From the NCBI GenBank assembly GCA_943913135.1, contig CALTVE010000002.1:283981-347980 (forward strand): 64,000 nt of DNA, written 5' to 3'. The first letter of the stretch is position 1. Each line of letters begins with the position of its first letter. This document shows positions 17,401-23,400 of this stretch, piece by piece. The position numbers are program-made. This stretch comes from an uncultured Francisella sp. Its GTDB lineage: Bacteria > Pseudomonadota > Gammaproteobacteria > Burkholderiales > Neisseriaceae.

Positions 17401-20400
17401 TTTATCTTGTTCTCCGTTTTCATGATCTTGATAGACCGATAGAAAACCCTCAAACGTTAAAACTTGGCCATTGGCGCGAAATAGACCTGGGCCGACTGCT
17501 ATATCTACCGCCGTTGCATCAAAGAGCGCATCGCTCATTTGCGAAGCAAGTGTTCTTTTCCAGATCAAAGTGTACAGTTTAAGCTGCTCTGGTTTTAAAT
17601 AAGGACGCAGTTTATCGGGGGTATTGGTGATTAAGGTTGGACGAATGGCTTCGTGTGCTTCCTGTGCATTTTTCGTTTTAGTCGCATAGATGCGTGGGCT
17701 TTTAGGGAGATAGTTTTCTCCCTTATTATTTTTAATGTACGATCGAATATCATGGATGGCTTCTTGCGATAGGCTAACTGAATCCGTACGCATATAAGTA
17801 ATCAGCCCCATGGTCGTGTGGCCAATATTGAGCCCTTCGTACAGTTGTTGAGCAACACGCATAGTGACAGAAGTGGGCATAGAAAGCCTTTGGACTGCCT
17901 CTTGCTGCAAAGTGGAGGTGGAGAAAGGAGCCATCGGCCGTCGTTTACGCTTCTTTTTGGCAATAGTTTCAATAAGCGCCGGCTGATTTTCCAGTGTATG
18001 GAGAATTTCTTCCTGTTGTTGCTTGCTTTTAATGGCTAAGGGCGCTAATTTTTGCCCCTCTAGATGGGTTAATTTAGCACTAAAAGGCATTGCTTCCTTA
18101 TGGCTGTCTAGATGGATCGTCCAGTATTCTTGTGCTTTAAATGCTGCAATCTCTTCCTCTCTTTCCGCGATCAGGCGTAAAGCGGGACTTTGTGTGCGTC
18201 CAGCCGATAAGCCGCGGCGAATTTTTTTCCATAAAAGAGGGGATAAATTAAAGCCCACAAGATAGTCTAAGGCTCGACGTGTTTGCTGTGCTTCGATTAA
18301 CGGCTGTGATAGAGCACGGGGCTCCTGGATCGCTTTTAATACTGCACTTTTGGTAACTTCATGGAAGGCTACTCGGGAAATGGGTTTATCTTTAAGTTTT
18401 TTCTTGCTCTGTAAAATTTGCTGTAGATGCCAAGAAATGGCTTCACCTTCTCTATCTGGGTCAGTCGCTAAATAAATATGAGTACTGTTTTCTGCAGCTT
18501 TAACGATTTGCGCCACATGCTCTTTATTACGGGCGATCGCTTCATATTTCATTTTGAAATGATTCTCTGGATCCACAGCACCTTTTTTAGGAATAAGATC
18601 GCGCACGTGTCCATAGGACGCCAGGATTTCAAAATCCTTACCCAAATATTTTCGCAAAGTCTTGGCCTTAGAAGGCGATTCGACGATTAATAAATTCTTT
18701 GTCATGCTACTGTCACAGAGTGGCTGATGCTTCCTTTAAAATGTTTAGGTATCACTCTTAAAGGGAGCAATTATAGTGCCTAATTTACAAATTTCAATGC
18801 AGGAAAAAGAGATAGGTCTTTTTTGTTTAGTTGATCAGGCAGAACGGGTAGAAAAAAACAGGCTGTAGGCCTAAATAAGTCTGACGCTTAAACTATTTTG
18901 TACTATCTTTTTTATTAACTATAGGGGAAACATACCTTTATGAACGAAAAAAGCGGTTACAAAGAGTAGAACAAACTTCTGCGCAAGCGTCTAAATTAGT
19001 GGTACGCCTGGCATGCAATGACGAAGAAATTAAAGCAGCGCAAAGACTGCGCTATAGGGTATTTGTTGAAGAATTAGGTGCAGAAATAGAAAACAGAGAG
19101 AAGGGCTTGGATGTTGATCACTATGGCCCTTATTGTCTACATCTATTGGCCATCGATGAAAATAAAAATAAAGTCATTGGTACTTATCGCCTATTAACAC
19201 CGGCAGGGGCAAAAGCTGTAGGGGGTTGGTATAGTGCTTGTGAATTTGATTTAAACCCTTTAAGTTCTCTTTTAGGCCAGGCATTGGAAATAGGTCGCGC
19301 TTGTCTAGATAAAGATTATCGTCTAGGAGGGGGCGTGCTTTTAATGTGGTCAGGGATAACTTCTTTAATGGAGAAATTAGGCCTACGTTACTTTATGGGG
19401 TGTGGAAGCATTTCTTTAGCCGATGGCGGTATTTTAGCAAGTTCAGTGTATCATCGCTTGGTAGAAGAGGGAAACTTGGTTGAAGAAAAATATCGAGTGA
19501 CTTCTAGAAATCCACTTCAATTAAAAGATGTGCGAGCAGCCCATAAGGGGGAAATACCTACTTTAATTCGGGGCTACTTAAAATTGGGCGCTAAAATCGG
19601 CGGCCTGCCCTATGTAGATGAAAAGTTTGGTATGGCGGATTTATTCATTCTATGTGACTTTCAAGCGGCCAATCAGCATCTTGTAAAAAAAATTACGCAG
19701 AATTACCATCCAGAGAAAAGCAATAAGATATGACTTTTATCCGATTTTTTTTATTTTTTTATACCCTAATCATCGCAAGGATCAAGCTTTCTTGGTGCTT
19801 GCCCCGGCAACACGGTGAAAACCGTGCCCTTTATTTAAAAAAACTTTTCCACTGGGGAAGTAAAAACTTTGGCATAAAAATAAAGGTGTTTGGGAGTGAA
19901 AAGTTAGCTAAACCTTCTCTGGTGGTAAGCAGTCATATTTCTTGGTTAGAAATATGGGATAGTCTTTATTTATGGGATTTGCATTACATTAGCAAAGAAG
20001 AAGTAAAACATTTTCCGATCATTGGAAAATTAGCAAAAACGATGGGCAGTATCTTTATTGCCCGCAGTAAAACAAAAAGGTGCGTCGAGGGTATAAAACA
20101 GGTCAGTCATTACCTTTTACAGGGGGAAAACGTTATGCTTTACCCTGAGGGGACAACCAGCGATGGCACAAAAGTGCTGCCTTTTAAAGCGACCTATTTT
20201 AGTGCCGCCCTCAAAGCTCAGGTACCGGTGTGCAACCGATCGCCGTGTTTTATCGAAATTTCGATGGAACACAAAACACAGAAGTTGCCTATTGGGGAAA
20301 GATTAACTTGATCCAATCGGCATTGAAAGTAGCTAAAACGCGAGGAGTTACTTTGGAATTTTACGTTTTAGAGCCTATAGAACCGGGATTCAGTGGCAAT

Positions 20401-23400
20401 GAGAGCGCTATGACCGCGCCCTTTTAGCGCAAAAAGCACGCTTAGCGATTAGTAAATGTCTAGAAAAGATTAGGTAAGGGGTCAGTGGAGTGCTTCTGGA
20501 TCACGCAAAGTGCTAAGCAAATCATCCCCGATAAGTATCTGCAATTCCGCTTCAGTGGCCCAGGCGAGCATCAAAGTTAACACTTTTGCTAAATCTAGTT
20601 CAATGGGGCCTTCTTTTTCTCCTAATAACATGCTGGCATGGATCAGTAATTCCATATCAGAGGGTTTCAGAGCTTTCTCATGATAAAGAAAACTAAAGTA
20701 GCCACGCACCTCTGGCTTTAAAAGATGATTTTCTTCGCTAGAAAAAACGCGCTGATCACAATTAAGGGGGACTAAAGAGGATAAAGAAGGGTATTCTTGG
20801 GGAGTAGAGGAAACAAAAAGGGCATCTAAGCAATCGACTACTTGATTAATTTCCTCATGATCAAAACCTGCTTCATCAAGCTTTTCAGAAATATAACCAA
20901 TAGAAGGTATGTAATCTAGATCTTGGAAATACTCAAATAAGAATGCGAAGACTTGAAACATCGTGTGCTCCCTTCTTAAAAAGAAACGCGTTGAAAACGC
21001 CCCCCAGCGGAGGGCTCCACTGTGCCTTCTAGCTCCAATAGCAGCAACGCGCTGAGGATTTCATCACTAGAAAGCTGTAAAAGATTAGCAAGTTCATCAG
21101 GGTAAATAGGATCGGTGCCGATAGCCGCTAAAATTTTAGCGCATAGTTGCTCTTTTTCCCTCTGCGGTTTAGCACAACAGCTGTCAACGGTCTTTTTTTC
21201 TGCTGATTTTTTTTCATTATAAGGAGTTTGTAACCAATCTTCCATAATTTCATCGGCGCTTTCTATAAGCCTGGCCCCTTCTTTAATAAGGGCATGGCAT
21301 CCTTTGGCTTCTGGATTATGGATAGAGCCTGGAAAGGCCATCACTTCTCTACCGGCTTTAGCAGCTTCGTGCGCCGTAATTAAGGAACCAGAACGTAAAG
21401 CTGCTTCCACCACTACCGTGGCAAGACATAAACCAGAAATAATTCGGTTACGTCGAGGAAAATTCTGTGCCAATGGCTCTGTTCCTAAGGGAAATTCGGA
21501 CAATAGCAAACCTTTGTCAGCAATTTCGTGAGCAAGTCTCTGATGGCTTTTAGGATAAACCAAATCTATTCCAGTACCTAAAATGGCAATGGTACTTCCT
21601 TTCCCTTTCAGGGCACCGCGATGCGAGGCGCTATCAATGCCTGTGGCTAAACCAGAAACGACGGTAAAACCATGGTCGCTTAATTGTTTGCCGGTCTCTT
21701 CGGCTATATGCAGTCCCTGAGGCGTTGCTTTACGGCTACCCACCATAGCAATTTTAAGGGGATGGATCAGTAGTTCAAGCTGGCCGCGGGCGAAAAGAAC
21801 AGGCGGTGGAGAATAGACTTCACCTAAAAGAGGAGGGTAAAAGTCATCCAATAAAGTAATCAAGTGGTTGTCTGGGTGACTTTTTTCCCATGTCAACACG
21901 GGATCTAAATACTTTTTTTTAATTTCGATATTTTGCCAAAAAGGCAAAACTTTTTTAGGGTGGGTAATCAAGGGAGAGACTTCTTTAAAAGGGCGGGCTA
22001 TCACGGCTTGTGCGCTTCCCCATTCTTTTAACAAACGAAGGAAACTGCTTATCCCTAATTCTGGGGTAAAAGCCAGTTGCAAGTAAGCCAGACGTTCTCC
22101 AGTTTCCACCATATGAGGTTATTGAATACTATGGGGTTCGTAATCGGGGATATCTTCTAAATCCTGTGGCCGAGCCGTCACCCAATTGCCGATCTTCATA
22201 TAAGCTTGGTTGCTGGTAGAAAGCACAATGCCATAGGCTAGATCTTCCGAAAGATCATAAATTAAGATTTTACCTACATAAGTAGTGGGGTAAGCTATAT
22301 TTTTATACACAACATGACCGCGTTTTTGGTTATCCATCCACACACTGTTAGGAAGCTTATCGTAAACGGCTAAAACGGAGCCCCGATCTAAACCGTCTTT
22401 ACTGCCCCCGTTGATCACAACGGACTGATATTTAGCCAATTCTTGGTTATCAATGCTGGCAAAAGCATGCACGATGCGTGCCTTAAAATCAGGGGGGCCA
22501 GCATGAGGGACGAAGTTTAATTGTTCATGGACGTTTTCATTCAAAGGCAACAGGCGATCGCCAGAACTAATTTCGCCCACTAGATGAGTAATCACTAACG
22601 GGAATGCGACTCTGGTAGGAATATTCATAAAAGAAGGCGCTCTTTTCCCAAAGATATAAGCTTTAGAGTAGCGTTCATTTTCGGGAAGCTCTTTTTCTGC
22701 TTTTTTATGACGCGTTATAGTGTGTTTTGGGTTCTGTGGCTCTAATGTTTTTGCTTCTCCAACATAGGCAACTTCTTCGCCCAGGCTCTTGCCAGTATCA
22801 GGATCAATAATGGGCCCAACGTTACGAAAAATTAAGTAGCGCCCGGGCTTTTTTAAGTCACGAGCAAAAATTCTGTCACCAATAGTATAAAAATAGGTGT
22901 TTTTAGCGCCAGCGATAATTTGCGGGGAGGTAGCGATTTGTTTTTCCGCGAGTAAAGCAGGATGGGCAAGAAAATTTTTAATCAGATCAAGAGGAATTTT
23001 AGAGAATCGGTCCTGTTCATTTAGGTTATGAATAGTAGGATGTAAATTAATGGTGGGCAGGTGGTTATCATTCGCGGTAGAGGTCGATTCGAGGGCGCCT
23101 CTTTGAGCTAATGCGAACGAAGATACTAGGGAAAGTAAAGATACTAGGGAAAGTAGAAGAAAAGCAGTAGATTTCATAGTAAAGCCTTGTGTTAAGCAAT
23201 AGAAGAAATAGCTAAAACGACGTATAATCCCTAAACAAATTAAGCGTTAGGCATTTTTTTTATGAGCTTATTTTATCATTAAAACAGACACGCAAGACAT
23301 ATAGAAGCTTATGGAGAAAGCTTGATGATTGAATTAGAAATTTTACAATTTCCCGATGAGCGCTTGCATCGTAAGGCGGAAATAATCGAAACAATCGATG

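What the first reader, a model, noticed from the sequence alone, without database searches (positions are those of the whole stretch)
19730..20427. An olsB-olsA-type lipid acyltransferase pair in which the O-acyltransferase is broken by a TG insertion
The GNAT N-acyltransferase (18999-19733) is intact. It is translationally coupled to a PlsC-family gene whose N-terminal motifs (HISWLE, PEGTTS) and C-terminal motif (QPIAVFYRNFDG) lie in different frames. At 20228-20235 the sequence GGTGTGCAA contains an apparent TG duplication that splits the conserved VPV|QPIAVFY block. It is therefore one of three things: a decaying amino-lipid (ornithine-lipid-like) pathway, a phase-variable switch at the GT(GT)G repeat, or a sequencing error.
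Basis: seen in the sequence. Interest (0 to 1): 0.55.

Follow-up and report, generated by a model that had tools for sequence, protein, structure and literature searches.

The report
Dead olsA gene in skin bacterium
An uncultured Neisseria-related bacterium common on human skin carries a two-gene operon for an ornithine-lipid-type membrane lipid in which the second gene is broken in every sequenced strain and the first is broken in some, so this is ordinary gene decay, not a sequencing error or a genetic switch.

Summary
A GNAT N-acyltransferase (18999-19733, OlsB-like) overlaps by ATGA a PlsC-family O-acyltransferase (OlsA-like). The latter is split at 20228-20229 by an extra GT/TG, exactly inside the VPV|QPIAVFY motif.

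- A second +2 insertion (GA, 20401-20402) puts the last 23 codons in a third frame.
- The catalytic HX4D motif reads HX4E here, against D in 74 of 74 homologues.
- The GNAT lost its ancestral start codon through a 1-nt deletion.
- The locus is highly polymorphic between strains.

The same broken alleles recur on hundreds of contigs from independent human-skin metagenome assemblies, so this is not a sequencing error.

Nineteen further strain sequences show at least six different olsA lesions: R5* nonsense, +GT, +GA, two 1-nt deletions and an 8-nt deletion. The GNAT carries at least four. Every haplotype has at least one olsA lesion, and no intact allele exists in 15 billion proteins. That excludes a phase-variable ON/OFF switch.

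The louse symbiont Neisseriaceae bacterium PsAf has the same topA–GNAT–acyltransferase–smg–dprA arrangement, with an intact 249-aa gene. A sister species has an intact GNAT but an eroded olsA.

Verdict: a decaying olsBA-type amino-lipid operon. It is ordinary, but well documented at population level.

The parts
18940..18998 (+). Relic of the ancestral N-terminal extension of the GNAT gene. ATG 18940 and its AGGGGA Shine-Dalgarno-like sequence are now out of frame because of a 1-nt deletion at the A6 run 18947-18952.
   Evidence: DNA alignment with sister species L014, where MNEKERLQKVKQ...KLIVRLA is in frame. The run is invariant among strains L001-L013.
18999..19733 (+). OlsB-like GNAT N-acyltransferase ORF, 244 aa, GTG start. 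It is open in this window but polymorphic for inactivating lesions in the species: +AA after 19579 (206-aa product), C19674T (Q226*), and 114/129-aa and 148-aa frameshift alleles.
   Evidence: PF13444 E = 9.5e-30. NCBIfam OlsB 145 bits, below the 350 cut-off. Alleles. dN/dS against the sister species 0.19.
19730..20229 (+). olsA-like pseudogene, segment A. It holds codons 1-167 (PlsC motifs I-III and VPV of motif IV) and starts at an ATG overlapping the GNAT stop (ATGA). Read in this frame, the ORF runs on to a stop at 20309-20311, giving a 193-aa product.
   Evidence: PF01553 on the reconstruction, E = 5.6e-22. PsAf OlsA residues 5-168 align here in frame +2.
19742..19744 (+). Codon 5 (CGA). 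It is polymorphic to TGA (R5*) in 9 of 19 other strain sequences and is also TGA in the sister species.
19934..19951 (+). Acyltransferase motif I, read here as HISWLE (HX4E instead of HX4D).
   Evidence: All 74 homologues recovered from related loci have HX4D. HISWLE is present in all strain alleles.
20228..20229 (+). First frameshift: a tandem GT (or TG) duplication inside motif IV (VPV|QPIAV).
   Evidence: Absent in L009 and L098, present in the other 18 sequences.
20230..20402 (+). olsA-like pseudogene, segment B (codons 167-224 of the reconstruction) in a second frame.
   Evidence: The T at 20376 is deleted in 9 of 19 other strains.
20401..20402 (+). Second frameshift: a tandem GA duplication (GAGAGC against GAGC).
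   Evidence: Absent in L009 and L098 only. It is perfectly linked to the GT duplication.
20403..20477 (+). olsA-like pseudogene, segment C. It encodes RYDRALLAQKARLAISKCLEKIR plus a TAA stop, in a third frame. The gene is convergent with smg (20482-20961, minus strand).
   Evidence: The intact C-terminus is seen in proteins P0003, P0032 and P0033.

Best explanation
This is an olsB-olsA-type operon for an acyloxyacyl amino lipid (ornithine lipid or a close analogue). It sits between topA and smg-dprA in an uncultured Neisseriaceae-related human-skin bacterium, probably GTDB genus QFRN01, 'Candidatus Pellibacterium'.

[quoted passage not shown] The PlsC-family enzyme then esterifies a second fatty acid onto the 3-hydroxyl group.

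In this species the second gene is a fixed pseudogene. The window allele carries two tandem 2-nt duplications (+GT at 20228-9, +GA at 20401-2) and a D-to-E change in the catalytic HX4D motif. Other strains carry R5*, an 8-nt deletion and two 1-nt deletions. No strain has an intact copy.

The first gene has lost its original start and is frameshifted or truncated in a minority of strains. The operon is therefore being lost under relaxed selection during adaptation to a host-associated life. The complete diacylated lipid cannot be made from this locus.

Shown: the lesions, their recurrence in independent assemblies, the absence of any intact allele, synteny with an intact orthologue, and parallel decay in a sister species.
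Inferred: the lipid product, the reason for relaxed selection, and the organism's name.
For: Family and operon:
- Pfam PF13444 and PF01553. The best NCBIfam hits are OlsB and OlsA.
- About 68 of 83 related loci have the acyltransferase immediately downstream of the GNAT.
- The pathway itself is described in PMC12971839.

One gene in three frames:
-.
- Intact syntenic orthologue of 249 aa in Neisseriaceae bacterium PsAf: topA-GNAT-acyltransferase-smg-dprA-def-fmt.

Not an error:
- Truncated products are called on about 540 contigs from many samples and assemblers.
- Neighbouring genes in the window are ordinary intact ORFs.

Multiple lesions:
- The 20-haplotype table shows six distinct olsA lesions and two distinct GNAT lesions there (further GNAT alleles). 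Every haplotype has at least one olsA lesion.

No intact allele:
- The search with the reconstructed protein returns only the truncated cluster.
- Nine hypothetical intact alleles are absent from the 15-billion-protein collection.

Other support:
- HX4E against HX4D in 74 of 74 homologues.
- olsA has the highest SNP and indel density of the locus.
- Sister species L014 has an intact GNAT, but its olsA starts MTFI* and then loses similarity.

Organism:
- Human skin metagenomes.
- Nearest GNAT relatives are Neisseriaceae.
- QFRN01/'Ca. Pellibacterium' is a major skin taxon assigned to Neisseriaceae.
Against: - The GNAT ORF is still open in about three quarters of contigs. Its between-species dN/dS is 0.19, so 'the whole pathway is decaying' may overstate the case. 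The first step may still be useful.
- Within-species SNP counts are too few to show neutral evolution. olsA has 7 non-synonymous or nonsense against 6 synonymous changes, and the GNAT has 7 against 3.
- The amino-acid head group is unknown. Both proteins score below NCBIfam's OlsB/OlsA equivalog cut-offs.
- Metagenome assemblies can be strain chimeras, so individual haplotype combinations are less certain than the individual lesions.
- Only 64 kb of the genome was seen. Another acyltransferase elsewhere could substitute for OlsA.
Confidence: 0.85

Rival explanations
1. Remodelled pathway rather than dying pathway. Loss of the O-acyltransferase is tolerated or favoured. The retained GNAT alone makes a mono-acylated product (lyso-ornithine lipid or an N-(3-hydroxyacyl) amino acid) that serves as a surfactant, a membrane component or a host-directed signal on skin.
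For: - GNAT dN/dS is 0.19 between the window species and sister species L014. olsA is destroyed in both.
- The GNAT is an open 244-aa ORF on about 400 of about 530 contigs.
- L014 keeps a full 264-aa GNAT with its N-terminal extension beside an eroded olsA.
- Lyso-ornithine lipid is a known product of OlsB alone and a known biosurfactant (title and abstract of PMC11279095; pathway).
Against: - The GNAT has lost its ancestral start and Shine-Dalgarno context.
- At least four independent inactivating GNAT alleles segregate: +AA, Q226*, the 114/129 split and the 148-aa frameshift.
- The within-species ratio of non-synonymous to synonymous changes is 7:3.
- There are no expression or product data.
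Confidence: 0.25
2. Phase-variable contingency locus. Slippage at the GT(GT)G repeat switches the O-acyltransferase on and off.
For: - The lesion is a tandem dinucleotide duplication, and alleles with and without it coexist in the species.
- The other frameshifts (+GA, +AA) are also tandem 2-nt gains.
Against: - The tract has only two units.
- The +GT state is perfectly linked to +GA.
- The only haplotypes without +GT (L009, L098) carry R5* and, in L098, an 8-nt deletion. No ON allele exists among the 20 haplotypes.
- No intact product is found in the protein collection.
Confidence: 0.02
3. Sequencing or assembly error in this window.
For: None beyond the general possibility.
Against: - The identical 193-aa product (P0002) occurs on 327 contigs, and close variants occur on many more. 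They come from different BioProjects and from contigs whose names suggest several different assemblers, plus Logan assemblies.
- Flanking genes show no frameshifts.
Confidence: 0.01
4. The gene is still functional. Either the 193-aa truncated product (motifs I-III retained) is active, or the product is restored by programmed frameshifting.
For: The truncated ORF keeps 167 native residues, covering most of the Pfam PF01553 match (residues 50-172).
Against: - There is no slippery heptamer at either junction, and two separate recoding events would be needed.
- The alignment to the 247-residue T. maritima PlsC chain (5KYM) ends at chain residue 189. About 58 further residues of that chain would therefore have no counterpart after the break.
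- HX4D is degenerate.
- About half of the sampled haplotypes (9 of 19) add R5* near the start.
Confidence: 0.04

Closest known systems
OlsB-OlsA ornithine-lipid pathway (Sinorhizobium meliloti, Burkholderia, Pseudomonas olsBA operon)
   Same: - A GNAT (PF13444) N-acyltransferase is followed by, and translationally coupled to, a PlsC-family (PF01553) O-acyltransferase.
- The best NCBIfam hits are the OlsB and OlsA equivalogs.
- The GNAT is 39-41% identical over 91-95% of its length to Paraburkholderia proteins named L-ornithine N(alpha)-acyltransferase.
- OlsB homologues are reported in Neisseriales (PMC12971839).
   Different: - Scores lie well below the equivalog cut-offs: 145 against 350 and 117 against 300.
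- The head group is unknown. OlsB homologues can use glutamine or lysine.
- The O-acyltransferase here is a multiply broken pseudogene with HX4E.
Orthologous locus of Neisseriaceae bacterium PsAf (symbiont of the louse Polyplax serrata, GCA_017114885.1)
   Same: - Same gene order: topA ... GNAT-acyltransferase-smg-dprA-(352/360-aa protein)-def-fmt.
- GNAT 52% identical and acyltransferase 35% identical.
- The alignment is collinear across both frameshift sites.
   Different: - The PsAf acyltransferase is an intact 249-aa ORF with HISWFD.
- PsAf has extra gene fragments between topA and the GNAT.
PlsC 1-acyl-sn-glycerol-3-phosphate acyltransferase, Thermotoga maritima (PDB 5KYM)
   Same: It is the only solved structure detectable by sequence (E = 6e-13). 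Motifs I-IV align: HQSLMD/HISWLE, FPEGT/YPEGT, VPVLPV/VPVQPI.
   Different: - It uses a different acceptor substrate.
- The window gene is cut at motif IV and lacks an in-frame C-terminal part.
Simple-sequence-repeat phase-variable genes of Neisseria and Haemophilus
   Same: The frameshift arises by gain of a repeat unit, and the organism is related to Neisseria.
   Different: - The tract has two units rather than many.
- There is no ON allele.
- Additional non-repeat lesions are present.

Membership tests
OlsB (L-ornithine N-alpha-acyltransferase) | GNAT fold of the PF13444 (Acetyltransf_5) type | tested here: met
   PF13444 E = 9.5e-30, residues 17-118 covering the full profile.
OlsB (L-ornithine N-alpha-acyltransferase) | Score above the NCBIfam equivalog cut-off | tested here: not met
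   NF052554 scores 145.4 bits against a cut-off of 350. NF052555 scores 137 bits against 320.
OlsB (L-ornithine N-alpha-acyltransferase) | At least 30% identity and at least 70% coverage to an experimentally confirmed OlsB (criterion used in PMC12971839) | tested here: inconclusive
   The GNAT is 39-41% identical over 91-95% coverage to Paraburkholderia proteins that carry the OlsB name by annotation only. No experimentally confirmed sequence was compared directly.
OlsB (L-ornithine N-alpha-acyltransferase) | Forms lyso-ornithine lipid from ornithine and 3-hydroxyacyl-ACP | not testable with these tools
   This needs expression and lipid mass spectrometry.
OlsA (lyso-ornithine lipid O-acyltransferase, PlsC family) | PF01553 acyltransferase domain, encoded next to olsB | tested here: met
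   PF01553 E = 5.6e-22 on the reconstruction. ATGA overlap with the GNAT. The same arrangement occurs in about 68 of 83 related loci.
OlsA (lyso-ornithine lipid O-acyltransferase, PlsC family) | Score above the NCBIfam equivalog cut-off | tested here: not met
   NF052553 scores 116.6 bits against 300. NF052552 scores 105.4 bits against 300.
OlsA (lyso-ornithine lipid O-acyltransferase, PlsC family) | Catalytic HX4D motif | tested here: not met
   The window reads HISWLE. All 74 homologues have D.
OlsA (lyso-ornithine lipid O-acyltransferase, PlsC family) | Uninterrupted reading frame of about 250 codons | tested here: not met
   The gene lies in three frames in the window. No intact allele exists in the species.
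Phase-variable (contingency) gene | Long, hypermutable simple-sequence tract in the ORF or promoter | tested here: not met
   The tracts are (GT)2 and (GA)2 only.
Phase-variable (contingency) gene | Both ON (full-length) and OFF alleles occur in the population | tested here: not met
   All 20 haplotypes are OFF. Nine hypothetical ON products are absent from the collection.
Programmed ribosomal frameshift | Slippery heptamer at the frame junction, conserved in relatives | tested here: not met
   The junctions CCGGTGTGCAAC and AATGAGAGCGCT hold no X XXY YYZ motif. Relatives are in a single frame.

The most novel reading that the evidence does not exclude
Loss of the second acyltransferase is not neutral decay but a repeated, possibly adaptive event. 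It happened independently through R5* and through +GT/+GA within the species, and again in a sister species. The effect would be to convert an ornithine-lipid pathway into an OlsB-only pathway in one of the most abundant uncultured bacteria of human sebaceous skin. The bacterium would then make a mono-acylated lyso-amino-lipid or N-acyl amino acid (a surfactant or host-active amide). Alternatively, it would avoid displaying an acyloxyacyl lipid that host innate receptors sense.
Probability: 0.2. Interest if true: 0.55.

Novelty: new member of a known kind. Interest (0 to 1): 0.25.

Why it matters
- It settles the finding. The frameshift is biological, fixed and irreversible in practice, so automated annotation of this gene as a '1-acyl-sn-glycerol-3-phosphate acyltransferase' is misleading.
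- It predicts that this prevalent, uncultured skin Neisseriaceae bacterium cannot make a complete ornithine-type lipid from this locus.
- The locus is a clean population-level example of a gene being lost. Several independent inactivating alleles are shuffled among strains, and the loss is paralleled in a sister species.
- The wider interest is modest unless the retained N-acyltransferase proves to make a bioactive lyso-lipid on skin.

Tried and rejected
- Genome collection, single query. A scan with the GNAT protein found no relative.
- Genome collection, alignment query. The second scan returned 80 distant betaproteobacterial loci but not the window's own species. The organism's name therefore rests on indirect evidence: skin metagenome sources, Neisseriaceae affinity and literature on QFRN01.
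- Literature. The paper that described 'Candidatus Pellibacterium' (doi 10.1038/s41564-021-01011-w) is not held.
- Other broken genes in the window. Overlapping or adjacent ORF pairs at 7891-9257, 24744-26538 and 31821-34024 were tested as a sign of assembly noise or genome-wide decay. Where a Pfam family matched, they are ordinary separate genes: AtpI, AtpB, RsmB, DUF4390, an aldehyde-dehydrogenase-family protein and an M48 peptidase. ORF 7891-8196 gave no hit.
- Promoter and terminator scan of 18600-20600. It showed nothing above shuffled expectation that bears on the finding.
- Rfam. It found only three tRNAs far from the locus.
- SNP-based selection test within the species. It has too few sites to be informative.
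- Shared ancestry of the R5* stop. I considered that the TGA shared with the sister species marks a single ancient inactivation. I rejected this because L009 still has a clean 195-codon ORF with conserved motifs downstream of the stop. That ORF would not have survived the divergence that erased olsA in L014.
- -1 ribosomal slippage on GAAAAAAG to restore the GNAT's ancestral start. The sequence is not a canonical heptamer and this was not pursued.

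
Full report
**1. What is in the sequence**

The window has 42% G+C. Between topA (16420-18705, minus strand) and smg/DUF494 (20482-20961, minus strand) lie two plus-strand genes.

The first is a 244-codon ORF (18999-19733, GTG start). It matches the GNAT family PF13444 (E = 9.5e-30).

Its stop overlaps (ATGA) the ATG at 19730 of a PlsC-family acyltransferase. That gene is spread over three frames:
- Codons 1-167 (..HISWLE..YPEGTTS..AQVPV) lie in the frame of 19730.
- QPIAVFYRNFDG...GFSGNE lies in the frame of 20230.
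- RYDRALLAQKARLAISKCLEKIR* (stop 20475-20477) lies in the third frame.

Joining the three pieces gives a 247-aa protein that matches PF01553 (E = 5.6e-22).

The best NCBIfam hits are OlsB for the first protein and OlsA for the second. Both fall well below the equivalog cut-offs: 145 against 350 bits and 117 against 300 bits.

**2. The three frames are one gene, and the lesions are 2-nt insertions**

The nearest genome with this locus is Neisseriaceae bacterium PsAf, GCA_017114885.1 (I recall it as a symbiont of the louse Polyplax serrata). It has the same order: topA ... GNAT (237 aa) - acyltransferase (249 aa, intact) - smg - dprA - a 360-aa protein - def - fmt.

Its acyltransferase aligns collinearly with the reconstruction across both junctions. 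In tblastn against the window, its residues 5-168 fall in frame +2 and residues 167-219 in frame +1, with a joint E of 2.5e-33.

Among the 83 homologous loci fetched (mostly betaproteobacterial), about 68 have an OlsA-like gene directly downstream of the GNAT. These appear as single alignments spanning both junction positions.

Comparison with another strain of the same species (L009) shows the exact lesions. The window has an extra GT at 20228-20229 (CCGGTGTGCAACC against CCGGTGCAACC). It also has an extra GA at 20401-20402 (GAGAGC against GAGC).

The second insertion was missed.

**3. Not a sequencing error**

A search with the reconstructed protein returned only the truncated 193-aa product. 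That product and its close variants were called on about 540 contigs.

The contigs come from many independent human-skin metagenomes and other runs: PRJNA46333 samples, several ERZ assemblies and Logan assemblies of SRR/ERR runs. Their names suggest several different assemblers.

The window's own allele (P0002) is on 327 contigs. It also appears in an NCBI MAG record labelled Haemophilus parainfluenzae (a label at odds with the Neisseriaceae affinity in section 9), where a source names it 1-acyl-sn-glycerol-3-phosphate acyltransferase.

Neighbouring ORFs that looked suspicious because they overlap are, where a Pfam family matched, ordinary intact genes. Among ten strain sequences, the sampled parts of topA, smg and the 352-aa gene show no internal indels.

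**4. Population picture**

I aligned the window with 19 strain sequences.

olsA lesions:
- C19742T, turning codon 5 CGA into TGA (R5*), in 9 of the 19.
- +GT (20228-9) and +GA (20401-2) are perfectly linked and are absent only in L009 and L098.
- Deletion of T20376, in 9 of the 19, scattered over backgrounds.
- Deletion of T19745 and an 8-nt deletion at 20161-20168, both in L098.

Every haplotype has at least one lesion. The two that lack +GT/+GA carry R5*.

Nine hypothetical intact 247-aa alleles, built from the observed variants, are absent from the 15-billion-protein collection.

GNAT lesions:
- +AA after 19579, giving a 206-aa product (7 of 19 sequences; 79 contigs).
- Q226* (38 contigs).
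- A 114/129-aa split allele.
- A 148-aa frameshift allele.

The lesion combinations fail the four-gamete test. This points to recombination among strains or, less likely, to recurrent mutation. Chimeric metagenome contigs could add to the pattern.

olsA has the highest SNP density of the locus (10 SNPs in 748 nt, against 9 in about 1800 nt for topA) and three indel events.

**5. Older signs of decay**

In all strains motif I reads HISWLE. All 74 homologues recovered have HX4D.

The GNAT's ancestral start is also gone. Sister species L014 (82% nucleotide identity over 17708-19747) encodes MNEKERLQKVKQASSPASKLIVRLA... from an ATG preceded by a Shine-Dalgarno-like sequence.

The window has the same ATG (18940) but a 1-nt deletion at the A run. 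The ORF can therefore begin only at GTG 18999.

In L014 the GNAT is intact (264 aa). olsA starts MTFI-TGA and then loses similarity through indels.

GNAT dN/dS between the two species is 0.19, against 0.067 for topA. The GNAT was therefore constrained for most of that time.

**6. Phase variation and recoding**

The repeat tracts have two units. No ON allele exists, and non-repeat lesions are present as well. There is no slippery heptamer at either junction, and relatives read in a single frame. Both ideas are rejected (section 4).

**7. Could the truncated product work?**

The only solved relative detectable by sequence is T. maritima PlsC (5KYM). It aligns up to VPVLPVSIW (chain residue 189 of 247). 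The break therefore falls in motif IV and would leave roughly the last 58 residues of that chain without an in-frame counterpart.

Together with HX4E, and R5* in about half of the sampled haplotypes, activity is unlikely.

**8. Mechanism**

From established knowledge of the OlsBA pathway (PMC12971839):
- OlsA then O-acylates the 3-hydroxyl group.

OlsB homologues can use other amino acids, so the head group here is unknown.

Shown: step 2 is genetically dead in this species.
Inferred: the complete lipid is not made. At most, strains with an open GNAT could make a lyso-lipid. The operon is being lost under relaxed selection in a host-associated lineage.

**9. Organism**

- The contigs come from human skin.
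- The closest GNAT relatives are Neisseriaceae: PsAf 52%, Neisseria dentiae 50%, Snodgrassella 44%.
- The literature describes GTDB genus QFRN01, 'Candidatus Pellibacterium', as a prevalent sebaceous-skin taxon (PMC10591041). A preprint lists 'QFNR01 (Neisseriaceae)' among the main skin taxa.

The identification is probable but not proven here. The species was not found in the genome collection.

**10. Verdict**

The feature is a new instance of a well-known kind: a pseudogene in a known operon. Interest is low to moderate.

The most novel reading still open is an adaptive, repeated loss that leaves an OlsB-only pathway.

Noticed in passing
window 20976-22112 (dprA, minus strand), position 21207: The DNA-uptake gene dprA carries a 1-nt deletion (T21207) in strains L003 and L004, where the product is 327 aa instead of 378 aa and lacks the winged-helix domain. 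L005 carries a similar shortened gene call that runs off its contig end. A second apparent split in L101 is only a run of N in a scaffold.
   Followed up: partly
window 18941-20500 against L001-L013 and L098-L103: The inactivating lesions occur in nearly all combinations, so the four-gamete test fails (for example +AA against +GT; delT20376 occurs on several backgrounds). This suggests frequent recombination among strains of this species, or chimeric metagenome contigs.
   Followed up: partly
L015 about 4944-5012 (Neisseriaceae bacterium PsAf): In the louse symbiont, the GNAT's ancestral N-terminal extension (MNKKRKKEKTAFKNLSET) ends at an in-frame TGA just before the TTG start of the 237-aa gene. 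The extension has therefore been cut off independently there too.
   Followed up: no
L015 2815-4747: PsAf has fragments of an acyl-CoA dehydrogenase (112 + 284 aa) and of a transglycosylase (85 + 114 aa) between topA and the GNAT. The window has only 293 nt of intergenic DNA at that place (18706-18998).
   Followed up: no
window 22119-23177 (minus strand): A 352-aa protein downstream of dprA has no Pfam hit. It is conserved in position in PsAf (360 aa), and some strains have a 346-aa form.
   Followed up: no
window 2899-3610: A cluster of three tRNA genes (Leu-CAA +, Leu-TAG -, Thr-TGT +) fills the 880-nt gap between ORFs 1981-2844 and 3726-5627.
   Followed up: no
window 18999-19733 / NCBI protein PZO92804.1: The public MAG that carries this allele is labelled Haemophilus parainfluenzae, although the locus is Neisseriaceae-like. 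The species did not turn up in the 185,579-species genome collection.
   Followed up: partly
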